A stretch of DNA of 64,000 nt, from the NCBI GenBank assembly GCA_003021085.1, contig PXRE01000026.1:66559-130558 (forward strand). The letters run 5' to 3'. This stretch comes from Halobacteriales archaeon QS_1_68_20. Lineage in GTDB: Archaea > Halobacteriota > Halobacteria > Halobacteriales > PXRE01. A model generated the notes under the pieces. That model had not been told where the DNA came from and ran no database searches. It was given only the letters and a program-made list of their open reading frames with translations. The translations under genes and the position numbers were made by a program. Below, in pieces: positions 11,233 through 19,517 of this stretch (within the stretch, counting starts at the first letter, position 1; each line of letters opens with the position of its first letter).

Positions 11233-11961
11233 ATGCGCGTGACCTTCCTCGGCACCGGCAGCGCCATGCCGACGGGCGAGCGGGTCCAGACGGGCATCCT
11301 GCTGGAAGGCGCCGACCGCCGACTCCTCGTCGACTGCGGGAGCGGCGTCCTGCACCGACTCGCGCAGGTGGCCGACTACGAGGACGTGGGCCACGTCCTG
11401 CTGACCCACCACCACCTCGACCACGTCTCGGACCTCCTCGCGCTGTTGAAGGCCCGGTGGCTCGCGGGCGCGGAGTCGCTGTCGGTCGCCGGCCCGCCCG
11501 GTACCGAGTCAATGATCGCGGACCTACTGTCGGTCCACGACTACCTGCAGGACCGGGTGGACCTCTCGGTGCGGGACGTCGAGACGGGGTCGTTCTCGTT
11601 CGCCGGGTTCGACGTTGAAGCGATGGAGACCCGCCACTCGATGCAGTGTTTCGCCTACCGGTTCGAGGATCGGTTCTCCTTCAGCGGCGACAGCGAGGCG
11701 TTCCCAGAACTCGCGTCGTTCGCGGACGGCTGTACGGCACTGGCCCACGACTGCTCGTTCCCGGACGAGGTGGACGTCTCGAACCACCCGACGCCGACGC
11801 AACTCGGCGAGGCCCTCTCGGGCGTCGACGTCGGGACGGTCTACCTCACGCACCTGTACCCCCACACCGACGGCAACCACGAGGCGATGCTTGACTCCAT
11901 CGCGGACCACTACGACGGGGACGTCGAATTCGCCGAGGACCGCCTGACCGTCTCGGTGTAG
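11233..11961 (+). CDS. MBL-fold metallo-hydrolase (RNase Z/beta-lactamase-fold)
   Basis: MRVTFLGTGSAMP... together with the HHHLDHVSD metal-binding motif. Confidence 0.85.
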   Translation: MRVTFLGTGSAMPTGERVQTGILLEGADRRLLVDCGSGVLHRLAQVADYEDVGHVLLTHHHLDHVSDLLALLKARWLAGAESLSVAGPPGTESMIADLLSVHDYLQDRVDLSVRDVETGSFSFAGFDVEAMETRHSMQCFAYRFEDRFSFSGDSEAFPELASFADGCTALAHDCSFPDEVDVSNHPTPTQLGEALSGVDVGTVYLTHLYPHTDGNHEAMLDSIADHYDGDVEFAEDRLTVSV

Positions 11962-12119: not shown

Positions 12120-13034
12120 ATGAGAGAAGTAGATCCACTGGTCACCCATCGACTCCCCGACGCGGGCGAACCAGAGACGTGTACGGACGTCGTCGCCTGC
12201 GCGGCGACCGACGTCACGGCGCTCGTCCTGGGGGCCGCAATTTTGCTCGTCGCCATCTTCGTGGCGGCGGTCGCGCACGTCCGGTCGGCCCGCTCGGTCA
12301 CGTCCGACGAACGCGAGCGCGTCCGCCGGGAGGCGAAGGCGTTCACGGCGTTCGCCGACCGGATCACGGACCTCGAAGCCGGACCGGCCGGGGGCTCGCC
12401 CCGGCGGGTCGGCACCGCCACGCTGGTCGAGTCGACGACGACGACGTCGTTACAGGACGTGGCGGACGCGTACCGCGAAACCGTCATGGCGGTCCCCCAC
12501 TACGAGAGCGAGTACGGCGAACCGCTGGCACAGAACATGGCCGCGGAGTTCGGCGACGACGTCGCAAGCGCCGTGGTCACCGGCCAGAACCTGACGCCAC
12601 AGCTCAAGCGGACCCTCCTCCAGCGTAGCGCCCGCGCCCAGCGACTCCGCCTCGCCCTGCTGGAACACCTCGACGCCGAGGCCGAGGCGGTCGCCGAGGC
12701 CGAGGCCGACTTCGACCGCATCTCCGACTCCGTCGACCGGATCGAGGAGGCGTCGCTCGAAGACGCCACGTTCGAGGACCTCCTCGCGGAGTGGTACCTG
12801 CTGGAGGACCGCGAGCGCGAGTGCGTCGAACGACTCCAGACGCGCCAGAAGACCATCCAGGACCGGCGAGGCCTGTCCAAGCACCTCTCGGAAGCGCCGA
12901 CGCTCGAACAGTACCTCTACGCACCCCTGGACGTGACCTATCCCGTGCTGGCCGACGGGACGACGTTGCTCGACCGGATCAGGGCCGCCCAGCACGACGT
13001 GCTCTACGCGCTCGGGAGCGTCGAGGGCGGCTGA
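12120..13034 (+). CDS. hypothetical membrane-anchored protein with helical C-terminal region
   Basis: The 304-aa ORF has one N-terminal TM helix (ALVLGAAILLVAIFVAAVA), then an acidic helical sequence. No motif recognised. Confidence 0.55.
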   Translation: MREVDPLVTHRLPDAGEPETCTDVVACAATDVTALVLGAAILLVAIFVAAVAHVRSARSVTSDERERVRREAKAFTAFADRITDLEAGPAGGSPRRVGTATLVESTTTTSLQDVADAYRETVMAVPHYESEYGEPLAQNMAAEFGDDVASAVVTGQNLTPQLKRTLLQRSARAQRLRLALLEHLDAEAEAVAEAEADFDRISDSVDRIEEASLEDATFEDLLAEWYLLEDRERECVERLQTRQKTIQDRRGLSKHLSEAPTLEQYLYAPLDVTYPVLADGTTLLDRIRAAQHDVLYALGSVEGG

Positions 13035-13035
13035 C

Positions 13036-14115
13036 TTACTCCAGGCGGTACCGCAAAAGCGCCGCGATGCCGCCCAGGTTCTTCAGGCGCTGCCCGGGTT
13101 CGAACTCGCTGGAGAACACGGTCACCTCCCCGCCCTGCCGTTCGACGTTGCGGACGATTTCGTCGACGTCCTCGTCCCACTCGCTTTCGGCGTCGGGGAC
13201 CGACCCGCGTTCGATCCGCAACCGCTGGTCGACCACGAGCAGCTCCTCGACGGCACCGAACTCGGCGGCCTTCGCCACCTGCTTGGGACCGTAGGCCGCC
13301 TTCGCCCCCTCCGCGATCCGGTCGGTCAACTCGTCGATGAGCCGCGCCTCCTCCGCGATGCGGGTCTTTTCGCGGACGTCGTCGAGGGTGCCGCGCGCGA
13401 GTACCTCGTGGACGCCGCGTTCGCCGGCGGCGCTGGTGTCGACGGTCGTCGCCAGCTCCGCCAGTTCGGCGTGGTGCTCCTGGACGTGGTCGAGGGCGTC
13501 CTGCTTCGTGAACCCGGGCCCCGCGAGGACGATGGCGTCGACCTCCAGCCGCGAGAGGACGTCGCCGAGGTCGTCGAACAGTTCCGAGCGGTCCCGGGCG
13601 TACTCGCCCTTGCCGGTCGGTCCGGACAGGGCGGCGTACTCCTCGATGCCGTATTCGGCGACCGTGTGGACGGTCGCGGCGCCCTCCTCGACGGTGGCGA
13701 TGGCCACGTCAGGTTGCTCGGCCGTCTCGGCGGCCTCCTCCAGTCGCTCGCGCTGGTCGGGCTTCCAGGACTTCTCGACGACGAGTTCGTCGTGTTCCTC
13801 GACGTTCAGCGTGTGGTGGTGACCCAGTTGGTCCTCCCGGGAGGCCCGCACGATCTCGCCGCCGACGCGCAGGCGGTTGGCGAAGCGGTGGAACTCGACG
13901 TCGGTCACCTCCAGGGCGACGTGCATGTGTTCGCGCTGGCCGCCGGTGTCCCGGAGTTGCTCGTCGTCGCGCTGGATGCGCCGGGTCGTGTCGCCCTCGA
14001 CGAGATCCCCGGGTTCGATCACGTGGACGAGGTGCCAGAGGTCGTCGACGGTGTCCGGGACGGCCGTCACGCGCTCGCGGCCGCCCTCGACCTGCTGGCG
14101 GTCCCGTATCTGCAT
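13036..14115 (-). CDS. pelA: Pelota (mRNA surveillance / ribosome rescue factor)
   Basis: [46 protein letters not shown]... and the eRF1-like C-terminal domains are characteristic of archaeal Pelota. Confidence 0.9.
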
Positions 14116-14218: not shown

Positions 14219-14857
14219 CTAGTCGTACCGGTCGACGTGGTTTTCGACGGCGTCCCGCTCGCAGTGGGCGTTGTAGTCGATCCTGGCTTCCTTTCCGTCG
14301 GTGCCGTAGTTGTAACAGCCGTGTTCGACCGCGCCGTCGTCGTTCCAACTCGCCATCGTGGTCGCCTCGTCGTCCGAGAAGATCCCGGCCTGCTCGTGTT
14401 CGCCGGCGTAGGTGTGGATCAGCTCGTGGTAGGAGATGTTGTCGATGGGCGACCAGTTCAGGTCGCCCTCGTAGGCGTAGTCGACGATGCCGCCACGGTC
14501 GCTGGAGTGGATCGCCGTCCCCGTGTCCAGCACCCAGCCCTCGTGGCCGAGCTGGTAGCTGTCGTCCAGGACGACCACGGCGTCGCTGGAACTCCACCAC
14601 CACGGATCCTCGGCGTGGAGCCAGTCCAGCGCCTGGTCCAGCCTGTCCAGTAGCGGCTTGTCGGCGGAGGAGTCGTACTCGACGTCCGGTCGGTCGTCGG
14701 ACCAGCTCATGAACGCGGCGTCGTAGTCGGAGTCGTCCGACCACTGCCAGGCCGACTCGCAGTAGTCCCTGGCCCTGGCCAGCGTGGTCCCGGGGTCGTT
14801 CTCGGAGTACCGGCTGACGAAGTCCGTCGTCATCACGAAGTCGTTGTAGAGGGTCAT
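14219..14857 (-). CDS. HExxH-motif protein (putative zinc metallopeptidase), no signal peptide
   Basis: 212 aa, W/D-rich, with the motif YHELIHTYAGEHE (HExxH followed by a His 6 residues later). It overlaps the upstream gene by 4 nt (ATGA). Confidence 0.6.
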   Translation of the reverse strand: MTLYNDFVMTTDFVSRYSENDPGTTLARARDYCESAWQWSDDSDYDAAFMSWSDDRPDVEYDSSADKPLLDRLDQALDWLHAEDPWWWSSSDAVVVLDDSYQLGHEGWVLDTGTAIHSSDRGGIVDYAYEGDLNWSPIDNISYHELIHTYAGEHEQAGIFSDDEATTMASWNDDGAVEHGCYNYGTDGKEARIDYNAHCERDAVENHVDRYD

Positions 14858-15669
14858 CGCGCATCACCGCCCGAAGCCACGACCAGTTCGTCGCCCTGGT
14901 TCGTCCTCGGAGCCTGGCTCCGGACGTGTTTCGCCAGGACGTGGTCGGACGCCCGGGGAACCACCGCCTGGCCCTCCCCGCCGAAGAACGTCGTCGGGCC
15001 GTGCGAGCGGGCCGTCAGGACCGGTTCGACGTCGACGCTTACCGGGTCGGGTTCGACGGACCGCGTCTTCTGGACCGGCCCGCTCCCGTTTCTGGCGTCA
15101 ACCGTCACCTCCCTGGTTTCGGTCGGCCGAGGTCGCACCGACACCTCGACGGGATCCAGCGGAATCTCGACCCGTTCGTTCCCGGACAGCGTCGCGGACT
15201 CCCCACCGTACTCGACGCGAACGCCACGGCCCGCCCGCGCGACCGTCGGCCGCTCGGGACCGTGGGACTCCGTCAACCGGAGCGCTCGCGTGCTGTGGCC
15301 CTGGAACGTTCCCTCGGCGGTCAGAAAGCGCGTCTCGATGTCCCGCTGGAGGTGCGCTGGCCCGTGCAGGTCGCCCCGGTGGCCGACGAGGACGTCCGGC
15401 GGGTTCCCGGGCCAGGCGTCGTAGTTCACCAGCGTCGCCAGTCCGTCGTGGGTGAGGTACTTCAACCCGCCGCACCCGACGCCGGTGGCGTGATCGCTCG
15501 CCCCCCGGTACTCCATCTTCACCTCCACGAACGGTCTCGTGGCGAGTTGCAACCGCTGGTCGTCCGCCGACGCCGTCCCGACGGTGACCCCGGCCCCACC
15601 GAGCGCCGCGAGCTGCCCGCTGTGTTTGAGCACGTCACGCCTCGATTTCTCCGATGGTGGGTCTGCCAT
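14854..15669 (-). CDS. Tat-signal secreted protein of unknown function
   Basis: The N-terminus SRRDVLKHSGQLAALGGAGVTVGTASA is a twin-arginine signal. 271 aa; first gene of a two-gene operon. Confidence 0.65.
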   Translation of the reverse strand: MADPPSEKSRRDVLKHSGQLAALGGAGVTVGTASADDQRLQLATRPFVEVKMEYRGASDHATGVGCGGLKYLTHDGLATLVNYDAWPGNPPDVLVGHRGDLHGPAHLQRDIETRFLTAEGTFQGHSTRALRLTESHGPERPTVARAGRGVRVEYGGESATLSGNERVEIPLDPVEVSVRPRPTETREVTVDARNGSGPVQKTRSVEPDPVSVDVEPVLTARSHGPTTFFGGEGQAVVPRASDHVLAKHVRSQAPRTNQGDELVVASGGDAR

Positions 15670-15690
15670 AATTTATTACCACTTTCTCCG

Positions 15691-15697
15691 TTTATAT
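15691..15697 (-). promoter_or_regulatory. TATA-like box for the 15669-14219 operon (leaderless spacing)
   Basis: TTTATAT lies 22-28 nt upstream of the ATG (15669), inside a ~70-nt AT-rich tract (15670-15740) that contrasts with the GC-rich surroundings. Confidence 0.4.
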
Positions 15698-15910
15698 CGG
15701 TTTCTAATTTTTAATTATTTGTTAGAATAAATGCCACGTGAAGGCGTCCGGCGTCAGGTCACCATCGAATCGGGCGTTCTCCCGGGGTCGCGCGGTTCCG
15801 TGGCCTCGTCCGAAACTCGGGCTCACGGTCACGATTCGATACGATGGCGAGAAGCGACCGCCGACGGGCGGGACGGTATCTAAGCGGCGGAAAAGTCCGG
15901 GGCCGACGCC

Positions 15911-18043
15911 TCACTCCTCGACGATGCGGCTCCCGCCTGGCGGCAGGAAGTGCTGGATCCTGTCCGGACTCGCCACCTTCCGGACGAAGGAGGTGTCCGC
16001 GAACCGCTCGCGGAACTGGCGGTAGATGCGCTTGCCGACGTCGGCCTGGGCGAACTTGCCGGGTTCGACCCGGACCGTGGTGACCGCCCGGCCCTCGATG
16101 GCGTCCGGTGGGCCGCCGATCACCCGGGTCGAGGATTCGCACTGGATGCCGACGGCGACCCCGACCGCCGTGTCGTCGTAGTAGGTGCGGTCGCCCCGGA
16201 CGGCGAACCCGCCTTTCTCCAGGTACTCGCCGCTCTCGGGGGTCTTGCTCACCTGGTCGGAGTCGACCGCGTACACGTCGCCGGTGAACCGGCCGTCCTT
16301 CCAGACCGACGAGTACGACACCGGGAACTGCGCGGCCTGCTGGAGCGTCGACTCGGGGAACTCGACCTCCTTCGCGGGTTCGCTCGGCCCCGTCGCCTTC
16401 AGGACGGTCGCCGGGCTGCCGTGGGCCTGGGTGTGGAAGAAGCGGTCCCCGCGTTCGAGGTACTTCTCGACCAGTTCCTCGTTCTGGTCGGCGTCGCGGC
16501 CGCCGATCACGAGGAAGCCGTCGCTCGTCCGGAACCAGCGGAACCGCTCGTACCAGTGGTCCTGCTTGCGAACCGGAATCGACGGTTCCGCGAGCCAGTC
16601 GGTCTCGGTCTCCTCGTCGTCCTCGTCGTCATCGTCGTCCGCCGGTGGGTCCGCCGCGTCCCACTGCTCCTTGCGACGTTGCCACTCTTCGAATTCCTCG
16701 CGGGTGTCTTCGATGGCTGCCAGCGCGCCTTCCTTCTTGTCCTCGACGCGCTTCGCCTCCGTGTAGAGGCGGTCGGCGTTCTTCTCGACGCCCGCCTCCG
16801 GATCGAGTTCGATCCGGTGGTCGTCTATCTCCACGGTCACCGTCCCCTCGTCGCCGTCGACGCCGACGACTGCCTCGGCCTCGGGAATGCCCTGGTCGGC
16901 CCCCGCCGCCAGGGTCTCCTCGATGTCCTCCCAGCCGTGGCCGTCCTCGCGGGCGGCGACGACCGTCGAGAGCACCTCGTCGACCAGGTCGTAACGGGCG
17001 TACAGCAGTTCCGCCTTCTCGCGCTCGCGCTCGGCCTGCTCGTCGAACCCCTGGATGGCGTCCTCCTGCTGGGCGATGATCCGCTCGCGCTTCTCGATCT
17101 CGGCCTCGAAGTCCGGGCGGTTCGACTCGCCGCCCTCGGTTTCCTCCTCCTGGGACCGCTCCAGTTCGTGGAAGTAGAGGTCCAGCGCGTCGGTGAAGGA
17201 GTCGTGAGCTTCAGAGCGCAGCCCCTCGTGTTCCTGCAGGGGCAACGGCGCGACGTCGACGGGGCGGTCGTCCTCGTAGTACACCCGGGGGTCGACGTCC
17301 CCGGTGCGCAGGCGGTCCGCGAGGTCCTGGATGGCCTGGAAGACGGCCTCGTAGTCGTCCTCGGTGGCGTCTTCGACGTCCAGGGCCTTCTCGACGCCGG
17401 CGCGGGTACACAGTTCCTCCGCCCAGAAGCCGCCGAAGTTGAGTTGCGTGGCCAGCGTCCGGACCACGTCGGTCGTCGACTCCTCCATCGCGGCGACGAA
17501 CGCCTCGTAGTCCAGCGCCAGCGGGTTGACCCGCGTCGAGGGAAACTCGTACTGGGATCCGGGCGCGACGGTCCTCGATTTCAGCCGGACGGTCTCCAGG
17601 CAGTCGACCACCTCGTCGTTGGCGTCCAGCACCGCGACGTTGCCGTCGCCGAACAGTTCGACGACGATGGTGGTGGACTCCTCGGCCGGCCCGTCTTCGT
17701 CGTCGCCCCGCCGCTCGAACCGCAACGAGAGGATCCGGTCGAACTCGTACTGTTCTGCGCCCGCGAAGTCCGCGCCCGACAGGCGGTTCCGTAGCATCAT
17801 GGCGAAGTTCGGCGGCCGCCCGGGCGCGTCCGGGACGTGCGCCGGGTCCGCGGCGTGCAGGCGCTTGACGGCCCCGACCTCCGCGAGCAGTTCGACCCGG
17901 CCGGCGTCGAAGTCCCGGAGCTTCAACCGGAGCATGTCCTCGCCGTAGAGGTAGGCCTTGTCCAGTTTCGCCCCCTCGTAGGCCGCGAGCTCCGGGACGA
18001 GCGCCGCGATGTCGACGCTCGTCAGTTCCCGCTTTTGCTCCAT
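15911..18043 (-). CDS. rqcH: NFACT-family ribosome quality control protein (RqcH/Rqc2/FbpA-like, NFACT-N plus DUF814)
   Basis: MEQKRELTSVDIAALVPELAAYEGAKLDKAYLYGEDMLRLKL..., a coiled-coil middle, and a C-terminal GGRDADQNEELVEKYLERGDRFFHTQAHGSPATVLK (NFACT-R/DUF814). ATG at 18043. Confidence 0.85.
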   Translation of the reverse strand: MEQKRELTSVDIAALVPELAAYEGAKLDKAYLYGEDMLRLKLRDFDAGRVELLAEVGAVKRLHAADPAHVPDAPGRPPNFAMMLRNRLSGADFAGAEQYEFDRILSLRFERRGDDEDGPAEESTTIVVELFGDGNVAVLDANDEVVDCLETVRLKSRTVAPGSQYEFPSTRVNPLALDYEAFVAAMEESTTDVVRTLATQLNFGGFWAEELCTRAGVEKALDVEDATEDDYEAVFQAIQDLADRLRTGDVDPRVYYEDDRPVDVAPLPLQEHEGLRSEAHDSFTDALDLYFHELERSQEEETEGGESNRPDFEAEIEKRERIIAQQEDAIQGFDEQAEREREKAELLYARYDLVDEVLSTVVAAREDGHGWEDIEETLAAGADQGIPEAEAVVGVDGDEGTVTVEIDDHRIELDPEAGVEKNADRLYTEAKRVEDKKEGALAAIEDTREEFEEWQRRKEQWDAADPPADDDDDEDDEETETDWLAEPSIPVRKQDHWYERFRWFRTSDGFLVIGGRDADQNEELVEKYLERGDRFFHTQAHGSPATVLKATGPSEPAKEVEFPESTLQQAAQFPVSYSSVWKDGRFTGDVYAVDSDQVSKTPESGEYLEKGGFAVRGDRTYYDDTAVGVAVGIQCESSTRVIGGPPDAIEGRAVTTVRVEPGKFAQADVGKRIYRQFRERFADTSFVRKVASPDRIQHFLPPGGSRIVEE

Positions 18044-18230
18044 GCCCGCACCTGCTCGCCCGCGGGGGAAAGGCGTGTCGTTCCCGCCGGAGGACGGCGC
18101 CAACCGAGATTCGCGTCGAGCCCGGGATCGCCACCGTCCGAGGCGAATTCTTTCATCAGCGACTTCATGAAGTAATTGAATTGATACGAATCGAACCATT
18201 TATTGTCCAGTTGGATGTGTTAGTGATTGC

Positions 18231-19517
18231 ATGCCAGGGAACTCGGGGGGAGCCGGCGTCGATAGACGACGGTTCCTCACGATCAGTGGAACTGTACTGG
18301 GCGGCATCGCCGCCGGAAGCACTGTCGTCGCGGCCGAATCCAGCGAACGGTTCATCGTCGACACGTCCTCGACGAGCGTCGACGAGCTGGAGGACGCCGT
18401 AGAGGTCGTCCACGACCTCTCGGAGATCGGCGTCGCGGTCGTCCGGGGCCGGGCCGGCGACCTGGAAGGCGTCACCACAGACTTCGAGCCGGACTCGGTG
18501 TACGCACTCGACCAGCCCGCCGACGCCGTCCCGGTCGAGGACGAGGCCGAGGCGTCGGACGCGGCCTACTACGACCTCCAGTGGGACAAGCAGGTACAGG
18601 ACGTCCCGTCCGCCCACGAGGTCACCGAGGGCGAGGGCACCCGCGTATCCGTCATCGACACCGGCGTCGACCCCACCCACCCCGACCTGGCGGACGCCGT
18701 CAACACGGAGCTGTCAGCCAACTTCACGGACGACGGCGGCGACTTCACGGACTCGGGCTACCACGGCACCCACGTCAGCGGCATCGTCGCGTCCCAGGGT
18801 CTGGGGACCATCGGTACGGCCCCGGCGACGGACCTGGTCGCCTGCCGGGTGTTCTCCGACGAGGGCGGTGCCTCCTTCGGTGACATCCTGGCCGCCATCG
18901 TGCACAGCGTCGCCATCGGTTCCGACGTGGCGAACCTCAGCCTGGGCGCCTACCCGGTCTCCCGGAAGGGGCTCGGCAGTTTCTACGGTAAGGTCCTCAA
19001 CCGCGCCACCACGTTCGCCAACAAGGAGGGGACTCTGCTGGTCGTCGCCGCGGGCAACGATTCCGCCGACCTCCAGCACGACGGCAGCGTCATCAGCACG
19101 CCGAACGAAGCCGCGAACGTGCTGAGCGTCTCGGCGACCGGCCCCATCGGCTTCGGCTGGGGCGACCCCGGCCTCCGCGAACCCGCGACCACGCCCGCGA
19201 ACTACACGAACTACGGCACCAACGCCATCGACGTCAGCGCGCCGGGCGGCAACTACGACCCCGACGCCATCGGGAGCGGGCAACCGTGGTACTACGACCT
19301 GGTGATCAACACCATCCCGGGCGGCTGGGCCTGGGTCGCCGGGACGAGCATGGCCGCGCCGCAGGTCACCGGCGCCGCCGCGCTCGTCAAGAGCGAGAAC
19401 CCCAACTACAACGCCAACCAGGTTCGCCAGACGCTGGAGAGGACCGCGGACCGCGTCGGCGACAAGGCTTACCACGGCAGCGGGTTCCTGAACCCGGTCG
19501 ACGCGGTGCAGGACTGA
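18231..19517 (+). CDS. Tat-secreted subtilisin-like serine protease (peptidase S8, halolysin-like)
   Basis: Tat signal VDRRRFLTISG, and the catalytic triad contexts VIDTGVD, HGTHVSG and GTSMAAP. Confidence 0.9.
   Translation: MPGNSGGAGVDRRRFLTISGTVLGGIAAGSTVVAAESSERFIVDTSSTSVDELEDAVEVVHDLSEIGVAVVRGRAGDLEGVTTDFEPDSVYALDQPADAVPVEDEAEASDAAYYDLQWDKQVQDVPSAHEVTEGEGTRVSVIDTGVDPTHPDLADAVNTELSANFTDDGGDFTDSGYHGTHVSGIVASQGLGTIGTAPATDLVACRVFSDEGGASFGDILAAIVHSVAIGSDVANLSLGAYPVSRKGLGSFYGKVLNRATTFANKEGTLLVVAAGNDSADLQHDGSVISTPNEAANVLSVSATGPIGFGWGDPGLREPATTPANYTNYGTNAIDVSAPGGNYDPDAIGSGQPWYYDLVINTIPGGWAWVAGTSMAAPQVTGAAALVKSENPNYNANQVRQTLERTADRVGDKAYHGSGFLNPVDAVQD

What the first reader, a model, noticed from the sequence alone, without database searches (positions are those of the whole stretch)
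14219..15697. Leaderless two-gene cassette: Tat-secreted protein plus a signal-less HExxH protein
Gene 1 (15669-14854) has a clear twin-arginine signal (SRRDVLKHSGQLAALGGAG). Gene 2 (14857-14219) overlaps it by ATGA, has no signal, and carries HELIHTYAGEH, an HExxH with a third His at metzincin-like spacing. The C-terminal part has 3 Cys and many Trp/Asp. The tight translational coupling suggests a complex. Either the metalloprotein is exported by Tat hitch-hiking on its partner, or the pair is a secreted-effector/cytoplasmic-partner pair. Neither product matches a family I recognise. The cassette has its own AT-rich promoter tract (15670-15740).
Basis: partly seen in the sequence, partly recalled or inferred. 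Interest (0 to 1): 0.6.

Follow-up and report, generated by a model that had tools for sequence, protein, structure and literature searches.

The report
Tat-carrier plus signal-less metzincin protease pair
A salt-loving archaeon carries a conserved two-gene unit in which a snake-venom-type zinc protease with no export signal sits behind a partner that has a twin-arginine export signal, so the protease is probably carried out of the cell by its partner, which would be a new kind of cargo for that mechanism.

Summary
Gene 1 (15669-14854, minus strand, 271 aa) has a textbook twin-arginine signal (KSRRDVLK, hydrophobic stretch, ASA cleavage site). Gene 2 (14857-14219, 212 aa) overlaps it by ATGA, cannot encode a signal peptide, and carries HELIHTYAGEH.

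Gene 2 does belong to a recognisable kind. An exhaustive profile search linked it to about 58 acidic, often Cys-rich protein clusters. Twenty of 44 aligned members touch Pfam Reprolysin models. Its AlphaFold model (pLDDT 89.9) matches adamalysin/ADAM catalytic domains only. H144, E145, C181 and C199 are invariant, H148 and H154 nearly so, and a Met-turn methionine is present.

Gene 1 matches no known family. In 12 of 14 loci examined, a gene 1 homolog with a twin-arginine signal lies directly upstream of the protease gene. Junctions are -4 to +2 nt in the ten measured, and nine of ten have a Shine-Dalgarno-like GGTGA/GGAGG. The two genes co-diverge (r = 0.95). One relative carries its own Tat signal and has no partner gene directly upstream.

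Best reading: a protease catalytic domain exported by Tat hitch-hiking on a carrier or prodomain-like partner, analogous to Streptomyces MelC1/MelC2. The complex and the co-export are inferred, not shown. Gene 1 could not be modelled.

The parts
15670..15740 (-). AT-rich promoter tract upstream of gene 1. A TATA-like GATATAAA lies at 15698-15691, which is -29 to -22 from the ATG.
   Evidence: 27% G+C against 68% for the window (sequence). The spacing fits an archaeal TATA box for a leaderless or near-leaderless mRNA. This is an inference; no transcript data are available.
14854..15669 (-). Gene 1: a 271-aa Tat-signal partner protein. The mature part is about 236 aa, looks beta-rich from its sequence pattern, and matches no known family.
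   Evidence: ORF. No Pfam, NCBIfam, PDB, PHROG or PADLOC match apart from the Tat signal. Homologs lie directly upstream of gene 2 homologs in 12 of 14 loci.
15565..15669 (-). Twin-arginine signal peptide (residues 1-35): KSRRDVLK motif, h-region LAALGGAGVTVGTA, ASA cleavage site.
   Evidence: TIGR01409 scores 16.6 bits against a cut-off of 16.7. R10 and R11 are invariant in all 10 aligned homologs; K15 is kept in 8 of them (N or Q in the other two) and L14 in 9 of 10. The hydrophobicity maximum is at residues 20-34. There is no lipobox Cys.
14863..14868 (-). Shine-Dalgarno-like GGTGAT inside the 3' end of gene 1, 5 nt before the gene 2 ATG.
   Evidence: GGTGA or GGAGG lies 5-9 nt upstream of the gene 2 start in 9 of 10 loci. 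It is encoded by the conserved C-terminal G-G-(D/E) of gene 1.
14854..14857 (-). ATGA stop/start overlap (translational coupling).
   Evidence: The junctions in the 10 measured loci are -4, -1, 0 or +2 nt.
14219..14857 (-). Gene 2: a 212-aa adamalysin/reprolysin-like metzincin catalytic domain with no signal peptide and no prodomain.
   Evidence: The AF2 model has pLDDT 89.9 and pTM 0.90. The top 50 Foldseek PDB hits are all M12B catalytic domains, plus CpaA. Twenty of 44 relatives hit Pfam Reprolysin_5. The family profile against PDB sequences hits only metzincins.
14396..14428 (-). Zinc-binding motif HELIHTYAGEH (H144, E145, H148, H154).
   Evidence: H144 and E145 are conserved in 44 of 44 relatives, H148 in 43 of 44, and H154 in 40 of 44.
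14354..14356 (-). Met168, the candidate Met-turn methionine, 14 residues after the third His.
   Evidence: Met in 29 of 44 relatives and I/L/V in 14 of 44, preceded by S/T in 44 of 44. Its position under the zinc site was not checked in coordinates.
14315..14317 (-). Cys181, an invariant Cys and the inferred disulfide partner of Cys199.
   Evidence: Conserved in 44 of 44 relatives. The disulfide is an inference.
14261..14263 (-). Cys199, an invariant Cys at the start of the C-terminal helix.
   Evidence: Conserved in 44 of 44 relatives. The helix spans residues 198-211 in the model.

Best explanation
The cassette encodes a two-component secreted zinc protease.

Gene 2 is a complete adamalysin/reprolysin-like metzincin catalytic domain. 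It runs from the first beta-strand to the C-terminal helix. It lacks the two things such enzymes normally carry at their N-terminus: a signal peptide and a prodomain.

Gene 1 supplies the missing export signal, a twin-arginine signal cleaved after Ala35. It also supplies a beta-rich domain of about 236 aa that has no known relatives.

Proposed mechanism:
1. Both proteins are made from one mRNA. It has its own AT-rich promoter, and an internal Shine-Dalgarno sequence plus the ATGA overlap couple gene 2 translation to gene 1.
2. The two proteins fold and bind zinc in the cytoplasm and associate there.
3. The Tat translocase, which moves folded proteins and complexes, exports the pair on gene 1's signal (hitch-hiking).
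4. Outside the cell, Cys181 and Cys199 form a disulfide and the protease is released from its carrier.
5. The carrier probably also acts as a prodomain supplied in trans, keeping the protease silent in the cytoplasm.

Shown: the ORFs, the motifs, the fold, the absence of a signal on gene 2, the conserved pairing and coupling, the co-divergence, and a relative with its own Tat signal.

Inferred: the physical complex, the co-export, the disulfide, any inhibitor or chaperone role for gene 1, and the substrate.
For: (1) The Tat signal on gene 1 is canonical, and its RR pair is invariant in 10 of 10 homologs.

(2) Gene 2 cannot have a signal peptide. An in-frame stop lies 0-11 codons upstream of its start in 9 of 10 loci, and its N-terminus is hydrophilic and forms beta-strand 1 of the fold.

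(3) Gene 2 is a metzincin of the adamalysin type, and its catalytic residues are invariant or nearly so.

(4) Twelve of 14 loci have a Tat-signal gene 1 homolog immediately upstream. They come from Halobacteriales archaeon QS_1_68_20, Natronosalvus, Halobiforma, Halorubrum and metagenomes, at 19-58% identity to gene 1. Junctions are -4 to +2 nt in the ten loci measured, and 9 of 10 have an SD-like motif.

(5) Pairwise identities of the two genes across 9 loci correlate at r = 0.95, and gene 1 diverges faster, as prodomains and chaperones do.

(6) Several points indicate that the protease works outside the cell. C181 and C199 are invariant. Family members carry up to 12 Cys. P0035 has a Tat signal (NRRTVLK) fused directly to the same catalytic domain, with no gene 1 homolog directly upstream.

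(7) Precedent exists. Streptomyces MelC1, which has a Tat signal and is the upstream gene, carries the signal-less metalloenzyme MelC2 out by hitch-hiking (PMC2758597). HybOC, DmsAB and PaoABC are further Tat hitch-hiker complexes (PMC4273604, PMC6708511).

(8) The gene 1 / gene 2 boundary coincides with the prodomain / catalytic-domain boundary of M12B zymogens. The 212-aa model aligns over its whole length to mature snake-venom enzymes of 197-203 aa.
Against: There is no direct evidence of an interaction. No multimer prediction was possible and gene 1 was never modelled.

Gene 1 has no invariant Cys, Asp or His of the kind that would be an obvious zinc-blocking 'switch'. C66 is limited to one clade, and H223 is present in only 8 of 10 homologs.

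P0035 appears to manage without a partner or a prodomain, so the partner is not needed for folding in every family member.

Two cultured-strain copies are damaged: gene 2 is interrupted in Halobiforma and gene 1 is frameshifted in Halorubrum. The cassette is therefore dispensable.

Known natural Tat hitch-hikers are cofactor enzymes. No protease example is known to me or was found in the literature searches.
Confidence: 0.55

Rival explanations
1. Protease plus dedicated secreted inhibitor, as in the serralysin AprA/AprI (Inh) operons. Gene 1 would be exported alone by Tat and act as an extracellular or surface-layer inhibitor. The signal-less metzincin would leave the cell by another route (an ABC exporter, vesicles or lysis) or stay inside.
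For: The arrangement matches: a signal-bearing partner next to a signal-less metzincin. In L005 an ABC-2 transporter lies immediately upstream of the pair. Mature gene 1 is much less acidic (pI 4.2-9.0) than gene 2 (pI 4.05-4.45), which would suit tight binding.
Against: No transporter is conserved next to the pair in the other loci or next to it in the window. Gene 2 has no recognisable C-terminal secretion signal. P0035 shows that this catalytic domain is a Tat passenger. The translational coupling, with the partner translated first, fits assembly before export.
Confidence: 0.15
2. Substrate plus maturation protease. Gene 1 would be a Tat-exported pro-protein, for example a halocin-like or surface factor, that the gene 2 metzincin processes.
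For: The pairing and co-divergence are conserved. Haloarchaeal halocin precursors are Tat substrates (my own knowledge, not tested here).
Against: Gene 1 has no Cys-rich or hydrophobic peptide module and no conserved cleavage motif. A cytoplasmic protease acting on a folded Tat substrate before export has no precedent. The invariant Cys pair and the Cys-rich relatives point to an extracellular enzyme, which still needs an export route.
Confidence: 0.1
3. Gene 2 is a cytoplasmic metalloprotease whose function is unrelated to export, and gene 1 is an independent secreted protein that merely shares an operon with it.
For: No signal on gene 2. No interaction has been shown.
Against: The adjacency is conserved in 12 of 14 loci at about 20-25% identity, with coupled junctions and r = 0.95 co-divergence. 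The fold belongs to an extracellular enzyme family. The Cys are invariant and one relative has its own Tat signal.
Confidence: 0.07
4. A single fusion protein (signal, prodomain, catalytic domain) is made by programmed -1 ribosomal frameshifting at the junction.
For: Gene 2 lies in the +2 (= -1) frame relative to gene 1 in 9 of 10 loci.
Against: There is no slippery heptamer before the stop in the window (...GGC GGT GAT GCG CGA TGA). The junction types differ between loci (-4, -1, 0, +2 nt). Every gene 2 has its own ATG preceded by an SD-like motif. In L014 gene 2 is in frame with gene 1 and separated only by the stop codon. The frame bias is what ATGA and TAATG overlaps give automatically.
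Confidence: 0.03

Closest known systems
Adamalysin/reprolysin (MEROPS M12B) catalytic domains: P-I snake-venom metalloproteinases, ADAM and ADAMTS
   Same: The fold is the same over the whole 212 aa (Foldseek E = 7e-8, probability 1.0, TM 0.6-0.68). Three zinc-binding His and the catalytic Glu are at the same spacing, and a methionine follows downstream. The size is about 200 aa. Relatives hit the Pfam Reprolysin_2/3/4/5 models.
   Different: Sequence identity is 10-18%. The window protein itself is below every Pfam threshold. The motif has Ala where the canonical Gly sits (the Gly is one position later), and Glu rather than Asp follows the third His. There is no signal peptide, no prodomain and no cysteine switch in the same chain. 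It is highly acidic (pI 4.05), archaeal and halophilic.
Streptomyces MelC1/MelC2 (tyrosinase and its Tat-signal 'caddie')
   Same: A bicistronic operon in which the upstream gene encodes a helper with a Tat signal and the downstream gene encodes a signal-less metalloenzyme that is secreted by hitch-hiking on the helper (PMC2758597). The gene order and logic are the same.
   Different: There is no sequence relationship: gene 1 has no Pfam hit at all, including to the MelC1 family. The cargo is a zinc protease rather than a copper oxidase. The host is an archaeon. A metal-insertion role is not implied. Co-export is not shown here.
Classical Tat hitch-hiker complexes (E. coli HybO/HybC, DmsA/DmsB, PaoABC)
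   Same: One subunit carries the RR signal and the others have none. The subunits are encoded together and exported as a folded complex (PMC4273604, PMC6708511).
   Different: Those are redox enzymes with complex cofactors, and their subunits stay together as the working enzyme. Here the cargo is a hydrolase and the partner is more likely a temporary carrier or prodomain.
Serralysin AprA with its inhibitor AprI/Inh, and Acinetobacter CpaA with its chaperone CpaB
   Same: A metzincin encoded next to a dedicated small partner that binds it (an inhibitor or a secretion chaperone). The CpaA-CpaB complex (6o38) is among the fold hits.
   Different: Those are bacterial, and the proteases leave the cell by type I or type II secretion. 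The partners are unrelated in sequence. The partner is not the carrier of the export signal for the protease.
Fragilysin (BFT) and other metzincin zymogens
   Same: The domain order is signal, then a prodomain of about 170-200 aa, then a catalytic domain of about 190-200 aa. This matches gene 1 plus gene 2 laid end to end. Fragilysin is the best PDB sequence hit of the family profile (E = 0.017).
   Different: In zymogens all parts are one polypeptide and a protease removes the prodomain. Here the split lies at the gene level. Gene 1 shows no detectable similarity to any solved prodomain.

Membership tests
Metzincin clan of zinc endopeptidases | Extended zinc-binding motif HExxHxxGxxH/D: three zinc ligands plus the catalytic Glu | tested here: met
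   HELIHTYAGEH at residues 144-154. H144 and E145 are conserved in 44 of 44 relatives, H148 in 43 of 44, and H154 in 40 of 44. In the window protein the conserved Gly is replaced by Ala (the Gly is one position later). Gly is at the canonical position in 7 of 44 relatives.
Metzincin clan of zinc endopeptidases | Met-turn: a conserved methionine downstream of the third ligand, packed under the zinc site | tested here: inconclusive
   M168 lies 14 residues after H154. It is Met in 29 of 44 relatives and I/L/V in 14 of 44, and an invariant S/T sits two positions before it.
Metzincin clan of zinc endopeptidases | Catalytic-domain fold: an upper subdomain with a beta-sheet and the active-site helix, and a lower subdomain ending in a C-terminal helix | tested here: met
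   The AF2 model has pLDDT 89.9. All 50 listed Foldseek PDB hits are M12B-type metzincin domains, or CpaA, with probability 1.0.
Adamalysin/reprolysin family (M12B; Pfam Reprolysin_2-5) | Sequence match to the family models at the curated threshold | tested here: not met
   The window protein has no Pfam hit even at E <= 1. Twenty of 44 relatives hit Reprolysin_5 at E <= 1, with the best at 1e-9. The link is transitive only: the A1 profile finds those relatives at E = 1e-17 to 1e-4.
Adamalysin/reprolysin family (M12B; Pfam Reprolysin_2-5) | Asp immediately after the third His (HExxHxxGxxHD) | tested here: not met
   The window protein has H154-E155. In the family this position is variable (S, E, N, P, D). 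Asp is commonest one residue later, in 22 of 44.
Adamalysin/reprolysin family (M12B; Pfam Reprolysin_2-5) | Synthesised as a zymogen with an N-terminal signal and a prodomain in the same chain | tested here: not met
   Gene 2 starts at beta-strand 1 of the fold, with a stop codon 2 codons upstream. The signal lies on the separate gene 1.
Twin-arginine (Tat) signal peptides | (S/T)RRxFLK-type motif, a moderately hydrophobic h-region and an AxA cleavage site | tested here: met
   S9-R-R-D-V-L-K15, h-region at residues 20-34, and A33-S-A35. TIGR01409 scores 16.6 bits against a cut-off of 16.7. RR is invariant in 10 of 10 homologs.
Twin-arginine (Tat) signal peptides | Export depends on the Tat translocase and on the RR pair | not testable with these tools
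   This needs RR-to-KK mutants in a haloarchaeal host.
Tat hitch-hiker pairs (MelC1/MelC2, HybOC, DmsAB, PaoABC) | Only one partner carries the RR signal, and both partners are encoded in one operon | tested here: met
   The arrangement is conserved in 12 of 14 loci.
Tat hitch-hiker pairs (MelC1/MelC2, HybOC, DmsAB, PaoABC) | The partners form a complex before export, and the signal-less partner is found outside the cytoplasm | not testable with these tools
   Only indirect support is available: the invariant Cys pair, the Cys-rich relatives, relative P0035 with its own Tat signal, and the co-divergence at r = 0.95.
MelC1 caddie protein family | Sequence homology to MelC1 | tested here: not met
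   None of the 7 gene 1 homologs scanned has a relevant Pfam hit. This is an analogy of mechanism, not membership.

The most novel reading that the evidence does not exclude
This is a 'split zymogen'. In a lineage where nearly all secretion goes through Tat, the signal peptide and prodomain of an adamalysin-like protease have become a separate polypeptide. That polypeptide binds the catalytic domain in the cytoplasm, keeps it latent there, and carries it across the membrane. It would be the first natural Tat hitch-hiker whose cargo is a protease rather than a cofactor enzyme, and the first in archaea. The carrier domain has a fold with no known relatives.
Probability: 0.4. Interest if true: 0.7.

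Novelty: new variant of a known kind. Interest (0 to 1): 0.58.

Why it matters
Natural Tat hitch-hiking is known almost only for redox or cofactor enzymes and for Streptomyces tyrosinase. A conserved protease/carrier module in haloarchaea would broaden what the Tat pathway is known to carry.

It would also show a new solution to how a cell makes a folded, active protease in its own cytoplasm without self-damage. It would give an uncharacterised partner family a testable role. In addition it would provide a compact, salt-adapted two-part secretion module of possible biotechnological use.

The work also assigns about 58 clusters of 'hypothetical' halophile proteins to the adamalysin-like metzincins, a family barely described in archaea.

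Tried and rejected
Searches that found nothing:
- Direct Pfam, NCBIfam and PDB sequence searches with both window proteins gave nothing except the Tat signal.
- The gene 1 family profile against PDB sequences and Pfam gave nothing beyond the Tat signal.
- PHROGs and PADLOC gave no hits, so there is no sign of a phage or defence function.
- Two scans of the viral contig collection found no relatives.
- Literature searches for a haloarchaeal reprolysin, a metzincin with Tat, or a protease hitch-hiker found nothing relevant.

Searches with limited yield:
- The word-indexed protein search found only 3 gene 2 relatives and missed all gene 1 relatives, even when given the gene 1 alignment. The gene 1 homologs were found only by reading neighbouring DNA.
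- The first AlphaFold run, on a 4-sequence alignment, was useless (pLDDT 30). It consumed one of the two structure jobs, so gene 1 could not be modelled.
The narrow alignment gave only 1 genome locus and 3 metagenome loci.

Ideas rejected:
- A cysteine switch through gene 1 Cys66. This Cys is not conserved outside the near clade.
- Programmed frameshift fusion. The junction types vary, there is no slippery site, and gene 2 has its own SD and ATG.
- A hidden upstream start for gene 2. An in-frame stop lies 2 codons upstream.
- Recent foreign origin judged from base composition. The cassette is 65-72% G+C, like its surroundings, although homologs elsewhere sit in low-G+C, plasmid or integrase-linked DNA.
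- Paralogs elsewhere in the window. None were found.
Full report
**1. What is in the sequence**

The window is 68% G+C. Its gene 2 product is 100% identical to hypothetical protein BRC81_12305 of the metagenome-assembled genome 'Halobacteriales archaeon QS_1_68_20'.

- Gene 1 is 15669-14854 and encodes 271 aa.
- Gene 2 is 14857-14219 and encodes 212 aa.
- They share the four bases ATGA.
- Gene 1 begins MADPPSEKSRRDVLKHSGQLAALGGAGVTVGTASA/DD. That is a twin-arginine motif, a mildly hydrophobic stretch (maximum at residues 20-34) and an A-S-A signal-peptidase site.
- The signal scores 16.6 bits against the TIGR01409 cut-off of 16.7. It has no lipobox cysteine.
- Gene 2 contains HELIHTYAGEH at residues 144-154.
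- The 71 bases upstream of gene 1 are 27% G+C. A TATA-like GATATAAA lies 22-29 nt before the ATG. This is compatible with a leaderless mRNA but does not prove one.
- An in-frame stop lies two codons upstream of the gene 2 ATG. The lack of a signal peptide on gene 2 is therefore a property of the DNA, not of the gene call.

**2. Gene 2 is an adamalysin-like metzincin**

The window protein alone hits nothing in Pfam, NCBIfam or the PDB sequences. It has only three close relatives among 5.8 billion clustered proteins.

A profile built from those four sequences was searched exhaustively against 1.84 billion representatives. It found 58 proteins (15 at E <= 1e-10), almost all 200-240 aa and matched end to end. 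I aligned 44 of them.

| Position in the window protein | Conservation in 44 relatives |
|---|---|
| W37, G107, H144, E145, C181, C199 | 44 of 44 |
| H148 | 43 of 44 |
| H154 | 40 of 44 |
| M168 | Met in 29 of 44, I/L/V in 14 of 44 |

- M168 lies 14 residues after the third His. An invariant S/T sits two positions before it. This is where a Met-turn is expected.
- Twenty of the 44 relatives hit Pfam Reprolysin_5 (best E = 1e-9). Others hit Reprolysin_2, Reprolysin_3 or Reprolysin_4.
- With the 44-sequence alignment, AlphaFold gave a confident model (pLDDT 89.9, pTM 0.90).
- The 50 best Foldseek matches in the PDB are all catalytic domains of snake-venom P-I metalloproteinases, ADAMs or ADAMTSs, or the metzincin CpaA. 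Values are E down to 7e-8, probability 1.0 and TM 0.6-0.68.
- The alignments span the whole 212 residues against mature enzymes of 197-203 residues.
- The family profile against PDB sequences hits only metzincins, weakly: fragilysin, ADAM17, BaP1, MMP-1, astacin and ulilysin.

Gene 2 is therefore a full catalytic domain and nothing more. It starts at the first beta-strand and ends with the C-terminal helix.

It departs from canonical M12B enzymes in several ways, which are listed in the membership table.

- It has Ala where the motif Gly sits.
- It has Glu rather than Asp after the third His.
- Its identity to solved structures is 10-18%.
- The window protein gets no supra-threshold Pfam score.

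I file it as a divergent adamalysin-like metzincin, not as a certified M12B member.

**3. The family is halophilic and looks extracellular**

- Members average about 18% Asp+Glu against about 5% Lys+Arg.
- The named sources are all Halobacteria: the QS_1_68_20 MAG, Natronosalvus caseinilyticus (plasmid CP100395.1), Halobiforma haloterrestris DSM 13078 and Halorubrum hochsteinianum (plasmid CP098416.1).
- Two cysteines are invariant, and several members carry 8-12 cysteines. That is typical of disulfide-bonded extracellular proteins.
- All full-length members start directly with the first strand, with one exception.
- The exception is P0035. It has MKEVADQLNRRTVLKAGTGIVGGTGIITAMTGAGAAA fused directly to the catalytic domain. 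The gene fragment upstream of it is unrelated, and no partner gene lies directly upstream. That contig is only 1.3 kb long.
- P0035 amounts to a natural signal swap. It shows that this catalytic domain is a Tat passenger.

**4. Gene 1 and the pairing**

Gene 1 matches no family in Pfam, NCBIfam, PDB sequences, PHROGs or PADLOC apart from its signal. The word-indexed protein search missed its relatives. I found them by reading the DNA upstream of each gene 2 relative.

A gene 1 homolog with an RR signal lies immediately upstream in 12 of the 14 distinct loci I could examine.

| Locus | Source or note |
|---|---|
| Window | QS_1_68_20 |
| L001/L002/L016 | Natronosalvus |
| L003/L004 | metagenome |
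| L005 | gene 1 had been merged by the gene caller into a 512-aa ORF with an ABC-2 permease, but has its own AT-rich upstream tract |
| L006 | metagenome |
| L007 | metagenome |
| L010 | metagenome |
| L011 | Halobiforma; gene 2 interrupted |
| L012, L013, L014 | metagenomes; L013 truncated at the contig end |
| L015 | Halorubrum; gene 1 split by a frameshift |

The two exceptions are informative.

- L008 is the member with its own Tat signal.
- L009 has a fragmented partner with no visible signal, next to a gene 2 relative that has lost its third His.

Features of the gene 1 family and of the junction:

- In the 10-sequence gene 1 alignment, R10 and R11 are invariant. A C-terminal block P..L..R.HG....G.......P and a terminal LVV...GG(D/E) are also conserved.
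- The gene 1 stop and the gene 2 start are -4, -1, 0 or +2 nt apart in all ten measured loci.
- In nine of the ten loci, GGTGA or GGAGG lies 5-9 nt before the gene 2 ATG. In the window this is GGTGAT at 14868-14863.
- The conserved G-G-(D/E) tail of gene 1 therefore doubles as the Shine-Dalgarno site for gene 2.
- Across nine loci, the pairwise identities of the two proteins correlate at r = 0.95.
- Gene 1 is always the more diverged. For the window against its three close relatives, gene 1 is 38-58% identical and gene 2 is 52-70% identical.
- Mature gene 1 is much less acidic (pI 4.2-9.0; 6.1 in the window) than gene 2 (pI 4.05-4.45).
- The alternating hydrophobic pattern of the mature part suggests an all-beta domain. 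This is my reading of the sequence; no model was made.

**5. Context**

In the window the cassette sits between housekeeping genes on the same strand.

- An NFACT/Rqc2-type protein lies at 15911-18199.
- Pelota lies at 13036-14115.
- The cassette's G+C content matches its surroundings.
- A Tat-signal S8 subtilase lies divergently at 18231-19517.

Elsewhere the pair sits in 43-53% G+C DNA, on plasmids, or next to integrases and IS elements. No other gene is conserved around it. It behaves as a self-contained, mobile, dispensable two-gene module. It is absent from the viral contig collection.

**6. Mechanism**

The simplest model that accounts for all of this is Tat hitch-hiking.

- Haloarchaea route most secreted proteins through Tat, which moves folded proteins and complexes (established knowledge; PMC6708511).
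- Gene 2 has everything an extracellular metzincin needs except a signal and a prodomain.
- Gene 1 offers a signal plus a domain of about 236 aa.
- Gene 1 is translated first, from the same message, with tight coupling.
- The gene boundary falls exactly where signal-plus-prodomain meets catalytic domain in adamalysin and fragilysin zymogens.

I therefore propose that the two products associate in the cytoplasm and are exported together on gene 1's signal. Gene 1 would also restrain the protease until it is outside the cell, making this a zymogen split at the gene level.

The closest worked-out analogue is the Streptomyces melC operon. There the upstream MelC1 has the Tat signal, and the signal-less metalloenzyme MelC2 is activated and secreted by hitch-hiking on it (PMC2758597). 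Other precedents are HybOC, DmsAB and PaoABC (PMC4273604).

What is shown:
- The anatomy of the cassette and the fold of gene 2.
- The missing signal on gene 2.
- The conserved, coupled pairing and the co-divergence.
- The Tat-fused relative P0035.

What is inferred:
- The complex and the co-export.
- The C181-C199 disulfide.
- Any inhibitory or chaperone role for gene 1.
- The substrate.

I put 0.55 on this explanation as a whole and about 0.9 on 'gene 2 is an active adamalysin-like metzincin'.

**7. Rivals**

- **Secreted inhibitor plus a protease exported otherwise, as in serralysin AprA/AprI (0.15).** This fits the asymmetry in signals and the charge contrast. It needs an unseen export route, and P0035 argues against it.
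- **Tat-exported pro-protein plus its processing protease (0.10).** Nothing in gene 1 looks like a cleavable precursor.
- **Unrelated operon neighbours with a cytoplasmic protease (0.07).** This is contradicted by the conserved pairing and the extracellular hallmarks.
- **Fusion by programmed frameshift (0.03).** Nine of ten junctions put gene 2 in the -1 frame, but the junction types vary. There is no slippery site, and each gene 2 has its own SD and ATG.

**8. Novelty and limits**

- I found no paper describing this family, a haloarchaeal reprolysin-like enzyme, or a protease exported by Tat hitch-hiking. The searched library is incomplete.
- The enzyme is a new, divergent branch of a known clan, and the export logic is a known principle. 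The combination of a protease cargo, a novel carrier and an archaeal host appears to be new. I rate it 'new variant of a known kind'.
- The main gap is that gene 1 was never modelled and no multimer prediction was possible.
- The locus census covers 14 loci, not the whole family.

Noticed in passing
window 13036-14115 (-) and 15911-18199 (-): The cassette sits between two ribosome-rescue or quality-control genes on the same strand: pelota (eRF1 domains 1-3) and an NFACT/Rqc2-type protein (NFACT_N plus NFACT-R_1). No T-run terminator is visible in the roughly 100 nt between the gene 2 stop and the pelota start, so read-through into pelota is possible. I did not check whether NFACT and pelota are adjacent in genomes that lack the cassette.
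   Followed up: partly
window 18231-19517 (+): A 428-aa S8 subtilase (halolysin-like) with its own twin-arginine signal (RRRFLTISG) lies divergent from the NFACT gene. It is a second secreted protease within 3 kb of the cassette. This is probably coincidence, because no homologous locus has it.
   Followed up: partly
window 15634-15669 (gene 1 start); protein P0005: A public (ENA) gene call for gene 1 is 259 aa. It starts at codon 13 (GTG), which deletes the RR motif. The search for gene 1 returned no NCBI protein, although gene 2 has one (BRC81_12305). The Tat signal is therefore invisible in existing annotation.
   Followed up: partly
L005 419-1957: The gene caller merged an ABC-2 permease and the gene 1 homolog into one 512-aa ORF. 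The middle of that ORF is low-complexity read-through, and the gene 1 homolog has its own ATG at 1145 with an AT-rich tract upstream. An ABC-2 transporter directly upstream of the pair was seen only in this locus.
   Followed up: partly
L011 2133-3642 (Halobiforma haloterrestris) and L015 3148-4594 (Halorubrum hochsteinianum plasmid): The copies in two cultured strains look damaged. In Halobiforma, gene 2 is interrupted between its N- and C-terminal halves. In Halorubrum, gene 1 is split into two overlapping CDSs by a frameshift. These could be real decay or sequencing errors; I could not tell which.
   Followed up: partly
L012, L013, L014 (gene 2 homologs) and L009: One sub-clade lacks the third His at the standard spacing (HELLHMFMDQNQEH, HEMLHMFIEEGKWSSEH, HELLHMFIDNSDSEH; also HEILHFFYDPDTGSEIH in L009). 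Each has a His 6-9 residues further on instead. The third zinc ligand may have moved, or these proteins may be altered enzymes.
   Followed up: no
L016 1-1695 (Natronosalvus plasmid CP100395.1): A radical SAM protein and a 'three-Cys-motif partner protein TcmP' lie about 3 kb upstream of the pair, and a tyrosine recombinase lies about 2 kb downstream. The region is about 51% G+C, which suggests a mobile island.
   Followed up: no
window 14854-15669 vs 14219-14857, and 8 homologous pairs: Mature gene 1 proteins carry 19-37 Lys+Arg (pI 4.2-9.05). The gene 2 proteins carry 6-17 (pI 4.05-4.45). This is unusual for secreted haloarchaeal proteins and suggests charge complementarity between the partners.
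   Followed up: partly
window 12120-13034 (+): A 304-aa protein matches DUF7260 strongly (E = 2.9e-70). An MBL-fold hydrolase lies at 11233-11961. Neither is related to the finding.
   Followed up: no
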